Shown here piece by piece: positions 3,601 through 6,600 of a stretch of DNA of 64,000 nucleotides. The DNA comes from Escherichia coli (lineage in GTDB: Bacteria > Pseudomonadota > Gammaproteobacteria > Enterobacterales > Enterobacteriaceae). Every line of letters starts with the position of its first letter. The first letter of the stretch is position 1. The stretch lies in assembly GCF_003790525.1 (NCBI RefSeq), contig NZ_CP033635.1. One strand, given 5' to 3'. The position numbers are program-made.

Positions 3601-6600
3601 CTCTCTGGGTGACGATCGCCTGGCTGCGTTGTTTAACGAAGAACTGGGTGCGGTGATTCAGGTTCGTGCCGCTGACCGTGAAGCGGTCGAGTCCGTACTG
3701 GCACAGCATGGACTTGCGGATTGCGTCCATTATGTAGGGCAGGCGGTTTCCGGTGACCGTTTTGTGATTACCGCCAACGGGCAGACTGTATTCAGCGAAA
3801 GCCGCACTACGTTGCGTGTCTGGTGGGCAGAAACTACCTGGCAGATGCAGCGCCTGCGTGACAACCCGGAGTGTGCCGATCAGGAACATCAGGCGAAATC
3901 TAACGACGCCGATCCGGGCCTGAATGTGAAACTGTCGTTTGATATCAACGAAGATGTGGCAGCACCGTATATTGCCACCGGTGCGCGTCCGAAAGTTGCC
4001 GTGCTGCGTGAGCAGGGTGTGAACTCGCATGTTGAAATGGCGGCAGCTTTCCACCGTGCAGGCTTCGATGCAATCGATGTGCATATGAGCGACCTGCTGG
4101 CTGGACGCACGGGACTGGAGGATTTCCACGCCCTGGTCGCGTGCGGTGGTTTCTCCTACGGTGATGTACTGGGTGCCGGTGAAGGTTGGGCGAAGTCTAT
4201 CCTGTTCAATGACCGTGTACGCGATGAGTTTGCAACCTTCTTCCACCGTCCGCAAACGCTGGCGCTGGGGGTATGTAACGGTTGCCAGATGATGTCTAAT
4301 CTGCGCGAACTGATCCCAGGCAGTGAGTTGTGGCCACGTTTTGTGCGCAATACCTCCGATCGCTTTGAAGCGCGTTTCAGCCTGGTTGAAGTAACCCAAA
4401 GCCCGTCTCTGCTGTTGCAGGAGATGGTGGGCTCGCAAATGCCGATTGCTGTCTCTCATGGTGAAGGGCGCGTGGAAGTGCGTGATGCGGCGCATCTGGC
4501 GGCGCTGGAAAGTAAAGGGCTGGTGGCACTGCGCTATGTCGATAACTTCGGCAAAGTCACTGAAACCTACCCGGCTAACCCGAACGGTTCTCCGAATGGT
4601 ATTACGGCGGTCACGACTGAAAGTGGTCGAGTCACTATTATGATGCCGCACCCGGAACGTGTTTTCCGTACTGTCAGCAACTCCTGGCATCCGGAAAACT
4701 GGGGCGAGGATGGCCCATGGATGCGCATTTTCCGCAATGCACGTAAGCAGTTGGGGTAAGCCGTCAAACTCATTGTTTTTGCAGCCCGGATGAGGCATTC
4801 ACGCCGCATCCGGCATTAAGCACCAACCGCTATTATAAGCTCCCAACTTCGGGAGCTTTTTTGTGTCTGTAAATCACGACAATGGGTGGTTTACCGTGTC
4901 GCTTTCTGGCGACACTTAACTGATTGATTTTAATATTATCTAATAAGTTTATCTTAAGTTGTCTCTTTTTAGCGACACAGTGGCTGATTTACATTCAAAT
5001 AGCGAAGAAGCCATAAATCCCTCAAAGCAGCGTATAATCAGTACGTTACCAAACTATTTTCTTTATTGGCACAGTTACTGCATAATAGTAACCAGTGGCT
5101 CATTCACCGACTTATGTCAGCCCCTTCGGGACGTGCTACATAAAATTCGAATGACGCACAACAAGGTGCCTGCCGTCCAACTTCTGATATCAGCGTAGCT
5201 ATATCAACCCTCGGGCGAAACGTCGAGTTAGGCACCGCCTTATTCCATAACAAAGCCGGGTCATTCCCGGCTTTGTTGTATCTGAACTTCCCCTCGGTTA
5301 GCATCAGGCTATTCGCGTCTGACGAGAGTAACACCTTGAAACGCTGGCCCGTTTTTCCCCGCTCATTACGACAACTGGTAATGCTGGCATTTTTGCTGAT
5401 TCTGCTACCCCTGTTGGTGCTGGCATGGCAAGCCTGGCAAAGCCTGAATGCGCTTAGCGATCAGGCGGCGCTGGTTAACCGCACTACGCTTATTGATGCC
5501 CGGCGCAGTGAAGCGATGACCAACGCGGCGCTGGAGATGGAGCGTAGCTACCGTCAGTATTGCGTGTTGGACGACCCAACCCTGGCGAAGGTTTATCAAA
5601 GCCAGCGCAAGCGTTACAGCGAAATGCTCGATGCCCACGCAGGCGTGCTGCCGGACGATAAACTCTACCAGGCATTACGTCAGGACTTGAACAATCTGGC
5701 TCAACTTCAGTGTAACAACAGCGGTCCCGATGCCGCCGCCGCCGCGCGTCTGGAAGCCTTTGCCAGTGCCAATACCGAAATGGTGCAGGCCACGCGCACA
5801 GTGGTGTTCTCTCGTGGGCAGCAACTTCAGCGTGAAATCGCCGAACGTGGGCAATATTTTGGTTGGCAATCGCTGGTGCTATTTCTGGTGAGTCTGGTGA
5901 TGGTGCTACTTTTCACGCGGATGATTATCGGGCCGGTGAAAAATATCGAGCGCATGATCAACCGGCTGGGGGAAGGGCGTTCTCTGGGCAATAGCGTCTC
6001 GTTCAGTGGACCGAGCGAGTTACGCTCGGTTGGGCAACGTATTCTTTGGTTAAGTGAGCGCCTGTCATGGCTGGAATCCCAACGCCATCAATTTTTAAGA
6101 CATTTATCTCATGAATTAAAAACCCCGCTGGCGAGTATGCGCGAGGGCACTGAATTACTGGCAGACCAGGTTGTCGGGCCGCTTACGCCCGAGCAAAAAG
6201 AGGTGGTGAGCATCCTTGATAGCAGCAGCCGCAATTTGCAAAAACTGATCGAACAACTGCTTGATTACAACCGTAAACAAGCGGACAGTGCGGTGGAACT
6301 GGAGAATGTTGAGTTAGCACCGCTGGTGGAGACAGTAGTTTCTGCTCATAGCCTGCCCGCACGGGCTAAAATGATGCATACCGACGTTGATCTCAAAGCA
6401 ACAGCTTGCCTGGCGGAGCCAATGCTGCTGATGAGCGTACTGGATAATCTTTACTCCAATGCGGTGCACTACGGGGCTGAATCCGGTAACATTTGCCTCC
6501 GCAGCAGTTTACATGGTGCGCGGGTTTATATTGATGTCATCAATACAGGCACGCCCATTCCGCAAGAGGAACGCGCCATGATCTTCGAACCCTTTTTTCA

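What the first reader, a model, noticed from the sequence alone, without database searches (positions are those of the whole stretch)
4838..5340. Compact glmY regulatory module: purL terminator abuts the first GlrR site, and glrK probably starts at a TTG just after the glmY terminator
The purL terminator ends at 4863 and the first TGTC-N10-GACA GlrR site starts at 4864; three such sites precede a textbook sigma54 promoter with an overlapping cataat. The glmY terminator ends at 5277 and the only start giving a 475-aa GlrK is a TTG at 5336, so the sRNA and the kinase of its own regulatory system are separated by about 58 nt. The ATG at 5273 used by the ORF track sits inside the terminator hairpin.
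Basis: partly seen in the sequence, partly recalled or inferred. Interest (0 to 1): 0.4.

Follow-up and report, generated by a model that had tools for sequence, protein, structure and literature searches.

The report
Known E. coli glmY–glrK regulatory region

Summary
The window is E. coli, 100% identical here to strain SMS-3-5.

- The purL terminator hairpin (4837-4858, T-run to 4862) abuts the first of three exact TGTC-N10-GACA sites (4864, 4897, 4960).
- These are the only three such sites in 64 kb.
- A sigma54 box (5067-5082) overlaps CATAAT (5081-5086).
- glmY runs 5094-5277 (Rfam, 145 bits).
- A TTG at 5336, 58 nt after glmY, gives the 475-aa GlrK.

One detail is wrong: 5273 is TTG, not ATG.

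All of this is published (Görke laboratory) and already in RefSeq, which starts qseE/glrK at this TTG. I tested the start in 112 Enterobacterales genomes. The aligned codon is TTG or GTG in 108. Coding-type conservation begins right after it, and there is none upstream. The ATG at residue 16 is present in only 42 of 111. Thirteen genomes have an in-frame stop just upstream and no other start.

Its -35 lies in the glmY terminator tail, and the published transcription start is 25 nt before the TTG.

Verdict: already known, low interest.

The parts
872..4759 (+). purL coding sequence (phosphoribosylformylglycinamidine synthase, 1295 aa), the upstream neighbour
   Evidence: RefSeq annotation of the identical SMS-3-5 sequence (3888 nt ending at window 4759). 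The ORF ends at 4759.
4837..4862 (+). purL intrinsic terminator: 8-bp stem AAGCTCCC/GGGAGCTT, 6-nt loop, T6 tail
   Evidence: Terminator scan. Fold gives -13.6 kcal/mol, z = -4.7. Conserved in K-12 apart from one loop base.
4864..4881 (.). GlrR (QseF) activator binding site 1, TGTC-N10-GACA, at -230 relative to the glmY +1
   Evidence: Exact match. A site with at most 1 mismatch sits at the equivalent position in most of 118 genomes. Reported as dispensable and the least conserved site (PMC3045617).
4897..4914 (.). GlrR activator binding site 2, at -197
   Evidence: Exact match. Conserved 32-33 bp downstream of site 1 across Enterobacterales. Reported as essential for the sigma54 promoter.
4917..4929 (-). 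Distal IHF consensus site (AATCAATCAGTTA), between GlrR sites 2 and 3
   Evidence: Exact WATCARNNNNTTR match. An exact consensus lies at the same offset from site 2 in 69 of 108 genomes. The distal IHF site is essential for the sigma54 promoter (PMC3045617).
4960..4977 (.). GlrR activator binding site 3, at -134
   Evidence: Exact match. Conserved 63 bp downstream of site 2. Reported as essential.
5036..5048 (+). Proximal IHF consensus site (AATCAGTACGTTA), at -58
   Evidence: Exact match. An exact consensus lies at -56 to -59 in 29 of 108 genomes. The literature describes two IHF-like regions flanking site 3.
5067..5082 (+). sigma54 promoter, TGGCAC-N5-CTGCA (-24 GG, -12 GC)
   Evidence: One mismatch to TGGCAC-N5-TTGCW. 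Identical in K-12. Published as the GlrR-dependent glmY promoter.
5081..5086 (+). CATAAT, the -10 box of the weak sigma70 promoter that overlaps the sigma54 -12 element
   Evidence: Read from the sequence. Described in the literature. Present in Escherichia, Citrobacter, Enterobacter and others, and absent in Yersinia, Serratia and Erwinia.
5094..5277 (+). glmY small RNA, 184-nt primary transcript. Positions 5094-5241 correspond to the 148-nt processed, active form.
   Evidence: Rfam RF00128 match at 5094-5241, 145 bits. The K-12 ncRNA annotation maps to 5094-5277. Fold gives -64.2 kcal/mol, z = -4.4. The 184-nt and 148-nt forms are given in PMC4152352.
5247..5279 (+). glmY terminator hairpin: 14-bp stem, 5-nt loop, with the U-rich tail partly inside the stem
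   Evidence: Fold gives -23.4 kcal/mol, z = -7.0. Stem conserved in 46 close relatives. The simple terminator scan did not call it because the T-run is interrupted.
5276..5281 (+). TTGTAT, candidate -35 box of the glrK (qseEGF) sigma70 promoter, overlapping the tail of the glmY terminator
   Evidence: My assignment. It lies 17 nt upstream of TAGCAT. TTGTAT is kept, allowing for a 1-nt shift, in 34 of 37 compact genomes. The literature places the promoter 'immediately downstream of glmY'.
5299..5304 (+). TAGCAT, candidate -10 box of the glrK promoter
   Evidence: My assignment from the published transcription start. The TAnnnT pattern is kept in 35 of 37 compact genomes.
5311..5311 (+). glrK (qseEGF) transcription start, an A 25 nt upstream of the TTG
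   Evidence: [quoted passage not shown] That paper's fusion numbering (-480 = window 4856 = -238 of glmY) shows it counts from the TTG at 5336. Not measured here.
5324..5328 (+). GAGAG, a weak Shine-Dalgarno-like element 7 nt before the TTG
   Evidence: GAGA occupies -12 to -9 in 79 of 111 genomes, and these are the only conserved upstream positions. Pairing with the 16S rRNA 3' end is weak at -3.4 kcal/mol, a value that 44% of random 20-mers reach.
5336..6763 (+). glrK (qseE, yfhK) coding sequence: 475 aa, TTG start, stop included
   Evidence: RefSeq annotation. 100% identical to proteins that their sources name QseE/GlrK, with Pfam HAMP, HisKA and HATPase_c domains. Start codon supported by comparison of 112 genomes.

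Best explanation
This is the canonical E. coli purL-glmY-glrK(qseE) intergenic region. It works as published.

glmY transcription:
- Phosphorylated GlrR binds three TGTC-N10-GACA sites 117-230 bp upstream of glmY.
- With IHF-induced bending at two sites, GlrR activates a sigma54 promoter.
- A weak sigma70 promoter (CATAAT) overlaps that promoter and starts at the same nucleotide, 5094.
- The 184-nt GlmY ends at a strong hairpin and is trimmed to 148 nt.

glrK transcription:
- The kinase operon glrK-qseG-glrR is transcribed separately from a weak sigma70 promoter packed into the 58-nt spacer.
- Its elements are a -35 TTGTAT in the terminator tail, a -10 TAGCAT, and a start at 5311.

glrK translation:
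- GlrK is translated from the TTG at 5336, behind a weak GAGAG Shine-Dalgarno element on a 25-nt leader.
- This fits its very low abundance.

Basis of each step:
- Shown here: the sequence features, their conservation, and the comparative support for the TTG start.
- Taken from the literature: binding, promoter activity, the transcription start, and the lack of read-through.
- Inferred by me: the -35 and -10 hexamer assignments.
For: - Identity of the locus: 100% identity to E. coli SMS-3-5, and found in 5425 of 5426 complete E. coli genomes. RefSeq features map exactly onto the window.
- glmY: Rfam match of 145 bits.
- GlrR sites: three exact sites against 0.79 expected by chance. Sites with at most 1 mismatch and spacings of 33 and 63 bp occur in 102 of 118 genomes.
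- IHF: consensus sites at 4917 and 5036. The distal one is at a fixed offset in 69 of 108 genomes.
- Start codon, aligned codon: TTG in 95 and GTG in 13 of 112 genomes. The four exceptions each have an in-frame ATG 1-3 codons upstream.
- Start codon, coding signal: per-codon-position entropy is 0.61/0.33/1.47 for codons 1-15, which is a coding pattern. It is flat at 1.56/1.63/1.63 for the 10 codons upstream.
- Start codon, no alternative: 13 genomes have an in-frame stop within 10 codons upstream and no other possible start.
- Spacer: conserved blocks TTGTAT and TAGCAT/TAnnnT.
- Literature: PMC3045617, PMC4152352, PMC6075780 and PMC8745638.
Against: - No direct experimental determination of the GlrK N-terminus was found. 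QseE was not detected in a global proteomics study cited in PMC6075780.
- The Shine-Dalgarno pairing is weak and does not by itself separate 5336 from the other candidate starts.
- The comparison loci were retrieved with a pattern containing the sigma54 box and the glmY 5' end. Conservation of those two elements is therefore not independently shown here.
- Gene callers disagree: 460-, 475- and 496-538-aa versions all exist in public data.
Confidence: 0.93

Rival explanations
1. GlrK starts at the ATG at 5381 (Met16 of the annotated protein), giving a 460-aa protein. The TTG at 5336 would be untranslated leader.
For: Some gene callers choose this start: 460-aa versions P0003-P0005 are in the protein collection. 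ATG is a stronger initiator than TTG.
Against: - Codons 1-15 show the same third-position-only variation as the following codons. FPRSLRQLV is nearly invariant across families.
- The codon at this position is ATG in only 42 of 111 genomes and is otherwise Thr, Leu, Val or Ile.
- No Shine-Dalgarno-like sequence lies upstream; duplex energy is -2.8 kcal/mol.
- Starting here would remove the positively charged residues (K2, R3, R9, R12) ahead of the first hydrophobic segment. This last point is my inference.
Confidence: 0.04
2. GlrK starts at one of the TTG codons at 5273 or 5276 inside the glmY terminator, giving a 496- or 495-aa protein. This is what the mechanical ORF listing gives and what some older or automated annotations use.
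For: - The frame is open back to 5141, and 5273 is the first start-type codon after that stop.
- 497-aa and 538-aa annotations exist for Citrobacter relatives.
Against: - The codons lie in the descending arm of a -23.4 kcal/mol hairpin.
- They lie upstream of the published glrK transcription start at 5311, and read-through from glmY is reported as virtually absent.
- The 10 codons before 5336 show no coding periodicity.
- Enterobacter, Lelliottia, Kluyvera, Kosakonia and Silvania have in-frame stops inside the spacer.
Confidence: 0.01
3. In E. coli, glrK is expressed mainly by read-through of the glmY terminator, as a glmY-glrK operon as reported for Proteus mirabilis. The kinase would then be autoregulated through the GlrR-dependent promoter.
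For: - Proteus glmY-qseEGF is reported to be co-transcribed, with no promoter in the spacer (PMC8745638).
- The E. coli spacer is only 58 nt.
Against: - E. coli has a strong terminator hairpin, which the Proteus paper says is absent in Proteus.
- Reporter fusions with or without the whole glmY locus gave the same low activity, unaffected by qseF or qseG deletions. RT-PCR indicated virtually no read-through (PMC6075780).
- -35 and -10 blocks are conserved in the spacer.
Confidence: 0.03

Closest known systems
E. coli K-12 glmY promoter region (Reichenbach et al. 2009, as cited in and extended by Göpel et al. 2011, PMC3045617)
   Same: All named elements have the same sequence as in K-12: three TGTC-N10-GACA sites, both IHF-like sites, TGGCAC-N5-CTGCA, CATAAT, and +1 at the A of AGTGGCTC. 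The stretch from the terminator stem to the glmY +1 differs from K-12 by 9 substitutions, 8 in spacers and 1 in the terminator loop.
   Different: There is no functional difference. The window carries an extra 18 nt in a REP-like palindrome between the purL stop and the terminator, plus a few point changes.
E. coli K-12 glrK/qseE (b2556, NP_417051.2) and the qseEGF operon promoter (PMC6075780)
   Same: Same 475-aa reading frame, same TTG start, same 58-nt spacer after glmY, and an identical spacer sequence.
   Different: None found in the spacer or in the first 22 codons (the alignment ends there).
Proteus mirabilis glmY-qseEGF operon (PMC8745638)
   Same: Same gene order, three QseF sites, IHF sites, and a sigma54 promoter. 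The codon aligned to the E. coli TTG is also TTG.
   Different: In Proteus the distance from the glmY +1 to the aligned TTG is about 362 nt, against 242 in E. coli. No terminator or internal promoter is reported, and the genes are reported as co-transcribed. An in-frame ATG lies three codons upstream of the TTG.

Membership tests
GlmY small RNA (Rfam RF00128, GlmY_tke1) | Covariance-model score above the curated gathering threshold, over the full model | tested here: met
   145.2 bits against a threshold of 33; model positions 1-163 of 163; window 5094-5241.
GlmY small RNA (Rfam RF00128, GlmY_tke1) | Conserved position between purL and glrK | tested here: met
   purL ends at 4759 and glrK starts at 5336. 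glrK was found directly downstream of the glmY match in 111 of the 120 fetched loci, plus the window itself; most of the rest were too short downstream.
GlmY small RNA (Rfam RF00128, GlmY_tke1) | Acts as a decoy for RapZ and so protects GlmZ | not testable with these tools
   Known for the K-12 RNA (PMC4152352). The window's glmY differs from it at three positions.
GlrR/QseF-dependent sigma54 promoter | -24 GG and -12 GC elements at the correct spacing upstream of +1 | tested here: met
   TGGCAC-N5-CTGCA at 5067-5082, with the GC 13-14 nt before +1. Conservation in the fetched loci is not an independent test, because the search pattern required this element.
GlrR/QseF-dependent sigma54 promoter | Three TGTC-N10-GACA upstream activating sites more than 100 bp upstream | tested here: met
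   Exact sites at -230, -197 and -134, against 0.79 expected in 64 kb. Conserved with fixed spacing in 102 of 118 genomes.
GlrR/QseF-dependent sigma54 promoter | IHF sites between activator sites and promoter | tested here: met
   Two exact WATCARNNNNTTR matches flank site 3. The distal one is conserved in 69 of 108 genomes. Binding itself was not tested.
GlrR/QseF-dependent sigma54 promoter | GlrR binding, and dependence on sigma54 and GlrK | not testable with these tools
   Shown experimentally for the K-12 sequence, which has the same elements (PMC3045617).
GlrK/QseE sensor histidine kinase | Full-length identity to characterised GlrK, with HAMP, HisKA and HATPase_c domains | tested here: met
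   100% identity over 475 aa to proteins that their sources name QseE/GlrK, with PF00672, PF00512 and PF02518. The RefSeq CDS coincides.
GlrK/QseE sensor histidine kinase | Match to a dedicated curated family model | tested here: inconclusive
   None of the 25 best of 30 NCBIfam matches was a GlrK/QseE model. Those listed were generic histidine-kinase models, all below their cut-offs (the best was CreC at 141 bits against 356). The 475-aa and 496-aa versions scored the same.
Intrinsic (Rho-independent) terminator | GC-rich hairpin followed by a T-run | tested here: met
   purL: 8-bp stem plus T6. glmY: 14-bp stem at -23.4 kcal/mol, with an interrupted T-tail TTTGTTGT that the simple scan missed.

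The most novel reading that the evidence does not exclude
The non-ATG start of glrK may be a selected feature rather than an accident.
- The aligned codon is TTG or GTG in 108 of 112 Enterobacterales genomes.
- It stays TTG in 42 of the 44 genomes (Yersinia, Serratia, Proteus, Providencia, Photorhabdus and others) that also have an in-frame ATG three codons upstream.
- Other invariant leucine positions in those same genomes use four to six different codons.

This suggests long-term selection for an inefficient initiator that keeps kinase copy number very low. In some lineages it might mean dual initiation. I found no paper that discusses this.
Probability: 0.45. Interest if true: 0.25.

Novelty: already known. 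Interest (0 to 1): 0.08.

Why it matters
It matters little as a discovery. The locus, its promoter architecture and the TTG start are already in the literature and in RefSeq.

The practical value is for annotation. Public protein collections hold 460-aa, 475-aa and 496-538-aa versions of this kinase. The comparative test here shows that the 475-aa TTG form is the right one for E. coli. It also shows that the long forms wrongly run into the glmY terminator or into glmY itself.

The conservation of a weak start codon, a weak Shine-Dalgarno element and a weak promoter fits the reported very low abundance of the kinase.

Tried and rejected
- NCBIfam scan of the 475-aa and 496-aa versions, hoping a GlrK-specific model would fix the N-terminus. 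None of the 25 matches listed was GlrK-specific. Those were generic kinase hits covering only the C-terminal half.
- Shine-Dalgarno pairing energies for the four candidate starts. All are weak (-2.8 to -3.4 kcal/mol) and do not discriminate.
- The sigma70 promoter scan did not find the glrK promoter, which matches only 7 of 12 consensus positions, or the glmY CATAAT promoter. The terminator scan missed the glmY terminator.
- The sigma54 consensus count alone is not significant in the window: 3 matches against 3.7 expected.
- The original paper on the overlapping promoters (Mol Microbiol 2009) is not held in the library. Its results are cited through later open papers.
- A literature search found no direct mapping of the GlrK N-terminus.
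- I considered whether the abutment of the purL terminator and the first GlrR site is a conserved design. It is not: a T-run directly before site 1 occurs in about 27 of 102 genomes, mostly Escherichia, Buttiauxella and Enterobacter/Lelliottia.
- I considered promoter occlusion or feedback arising from the overlap of the glrK -35 with the glmY terminator. Published reporter fusions argue against autoregulation.
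Full report
**What is there**

The window is Escherichia coli. The stretch 4700-5500 is 100% identical to strain SMS-3-5, and it is present once in 5425 of 5426 complete E. coli genomes. The RefSeq features of SMS-3-5 and of K-12 MG1655 map onto the window as follows:

- purL ends at 4759.
- glmY, 184 nt in K-12, corresponds to 5094-5277.
- qseE/glrK runs 5336-6763 (475 aa).
- qseG, glrR and glnB follow.

Rfam independently identifies glmY at 5094-5241, with 145 bits against a gathering score of 33. 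That span is the 148-nt processed form described in PMC4152352.

**Check of the observation**

The following stated features are at the stated coordinates:

- The purL terminator is an 8-bp hairpin at 4837-4858 with a T6 tail ending at 4862.
- After one G, the first TGTC-N10-GACA site begins at 4864.
- The pattern occurs exactly three times in the 64-kb window, at 4864, 4897 and 4960, against 0.79 expected. All three lie within 114 bp.
- TGGCAC-N5-CTGCA is at 5067-5082, and CATAAT at 5081-5086 overlaps its -12 element.
- The glmY terminator is a 14-bp hairpin at 5247-5279 (-23.4 kcal/mol, z = -7.0).
- The TTG at 5336 lies 58 nt after the annotated glmY 3' end.

One statement is wrong. The codon at 5273 is TTG, not ATG, and it is followed by a second TTG at 5276. 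Both do lie in the descending arm of the hairpin.

**What is already known**

The architecture is published for E. coli K-12, which carries the same elements:

- GlrR binds three TGTCN10GACA motifs more than 100 bp upstream of glmY.
- IHF is required, and two IHF-like regions flank the third site.
- A sigma54 promoter and a weak sigma70 promoter (-10 CATAAT) overlap and start at the same nucleotide.
- The first GlrR site is dispensable and the least conserved.

These points come from PMC3045617 and PMC4152352.

[quoted passage not shown] Read-through from glmY is virtually absent, there is no autoregulation, and the kinase is barely detectable (PMC6075780). That paper's fusion end points show which codon it counts from. 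Its -480 relative to qseE equals window 4856, which is also -238 relative to glmY. The authors therefore count from the TTG at 5336, and the transcription start is the A at 5311.

The 58-nt spacer is not empty. Working back from the published start, I assign a -10 TAGCAT at 5299-5304 and a -35 TTGTAT at 5276-5281, with a 17-nt spacer. The -35 overlaps the tail of the glmY terminator.

In an alignment of 46 close relatives, three blocks stand out as conserved against variable surroundings: the terminator, TTGTATCTG, and CTCAGTTAGCAT. Among the 37 genomes with the same compact spacing, 35 keep TAnnnT at the -10 position and 34 keep TTGTAT, allowing a 1-nt shift.

The promoter matches only 7 of 12 consensus positions, which explains why the simple scan did not report it and fits the low expression.

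The two IHF consensus matches are at 4917-4929 on the minus strand and 5036-5048 on the plus strand. The distal one sits at the same offset from GlrR site 2 in 69 of 108 genomes.

**Test of the start codon**

This was the only part of the finding that is not directly documented by experiment, so I tested it by comparison. A scan of one genome per species with a glmY promoter/5'-end pattern returned 120 Enterobacterales loci from many genera. A tblastn search with the first 200 residues of GlrK found the gene downstream of glmY in 111 of them, plus the window itself. In nearly all, the alignment reached residue 1. The results were:

- The codon aligned with window 5336 is TTG in 95, GTG in 13 and something else in 4. 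Each of the 4 exceptions has an in-frame ATG one to three codons upstream.
- Positional entropy shows where coding begins. For codons 1-15 it is 0.61, 0.33 and 1.47 bits at codon positions 1, 2 and 3. This is the same pattern as codons 16-39 (0.62, 0.19, 1.28).
- The ten codons upstream are flat at 1.56, 1.63 and 1.63 bits, apart from a conserved GAG(A) at -12 to -9.
- The start codon itself is nearly invariant at its second and third positions (0.00 and 0.13 bits), unlike leucine codons elsewhere in the gene.
- The E. coli Met16 codon is ATG in only 42 of 111 genomes.
- Thirteen genomes (Enterobacter, Lelliottia, Kluyvera, Siccibacter, Erwinia, Pantoea) have an in-frame stop one to nine codons upstream and no other start-type codon between it and the aligned codon.

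Together these results rule out the ATG at 5381 and the TTGs at 5273/5276, and they support 5336. Shine-Dalgarno pairing is weak (-3.4 kcal/mol) and does not discriminate between the candidates.

**Limits**

- The loci were selected by a pattern that contains the sigma54 box and the first bases of glmY. Conservation of those two elements is not independently shown here. The GlrR sites, IHF sites, terminator, spacer and start codon were not part of the pattern.
- Related species are not independent observations. However, the contrast with other leucine codons in the same genomes controls for that.
- No direct N-terminal or initiation-site data for GlrK were found.

**How general is the compactness**

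- The direct abutment of the purL terminator and the first GlrR site is seen in Escherichia, Buttiauxella and some Enterobacter/Lelliottia, about 27 of 102 genomes by a simple T-count. Elsewhere the terminator lies further upstream or is not recognisable.
- The distance from the glmY +1 to the glrK start is 241-256 nt in the Escherichia-Citrobacter-Enterobacter group. It is 300-690 nt in Yersinia, Serratia, Hafnia, Providencia and others.
- In Proteus mirabilis the genes are reported to form one operon, without a terminator or internal promoter (PMC8745638).

**A small point that may be new**

In 44 genomes of more distant families an ATG lies three codons upstream (GAG ATG ATT TCC TTG ...). 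The aligned codon nevertheless remains TTG in 42 of them. Other invariant leucine positions in the same genomes use four to six synonymous codons. In the Escherichia group that ATG is replaced by AGT.

Two readings are possible. The TTG may be the functional start throughout the order, with the ATG part of the conserved GAGA element. Alternatively both codons may be used in some lineages. This is consistent with selection for weak initiation of a very low-abundance kinase, but it remains an inference.

**Verdict**

The finding is a correct description of a known, well-characterised locus, with one wrong codon identity and two omissions: the glrK promoter and the IHF sites. The proposed TTG start is already the reference annotation, and comparative evidence now supports it. 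Novelty: already known. Interest: low.

Noticed in passing
window 4784-4816: A REP-like imperfect palindrome (GCCCGGATGAGGCATTCACGCCGCATCCGGC) lies between the purL stop and the terminator. K-12 lacks 18 nt of it, so this spacer varies in length between E. coli strains.
   Followed up: no
proteins P0003-P0005, P0007, P0012-P0015; window 5273-5381: Public gene calls for this kinase disagree on the start. There are 460-aa forms (Met16), 475-aa forms (TTG, NCBI) and 496-538-aa forms. In Citrobacter the long forms begin inside the glmY terminator or inside glmY itself, for example the 497-aa Citrobacter rodentium ICC168 record.
   Followed up: partly
loci L010, L017, L047, L063, L090 and others, three codons upstream of the codon aligned to window 5336: 44 of 111 genomes (Yersinia, Serratia, Hafnia, Proteus, Providencia, Photorhabdus, Xenorhabdus, Rahnella and others) have an in-frame ATG three codons upstream of the conserved TTG. 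The Escherichia/Citrobacter/Enterobacter group has AGT there.
   Followed up: partly
whole window: The IHF consensus WATCARNNNNTTR occurs 11 times in the window against 3.6 expected, and no shuffle reached 11. Two matches are the glmY sites. The others (for example 41420, 41523, 42913) were not examined.
   Followed up: no
window 41842-42146 (-), 34477-34586 (+), 54987-55078 (+): Other RNA family matches in the window are ryfA (319 bits), the iscRS stability element (136 bits) and sroE (117 bits). No tRNA genes were found.
   Followed up: no
loci with glmY-to-glrK distances of 300-690 nt (Yersinia, Serratia, Providencia, Hafnia): The glmY-glrK spacer is several hundred nucleotides longer in these genera than in E. 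coli. I did not examine what the extra sequence contains.
   Followed up: no
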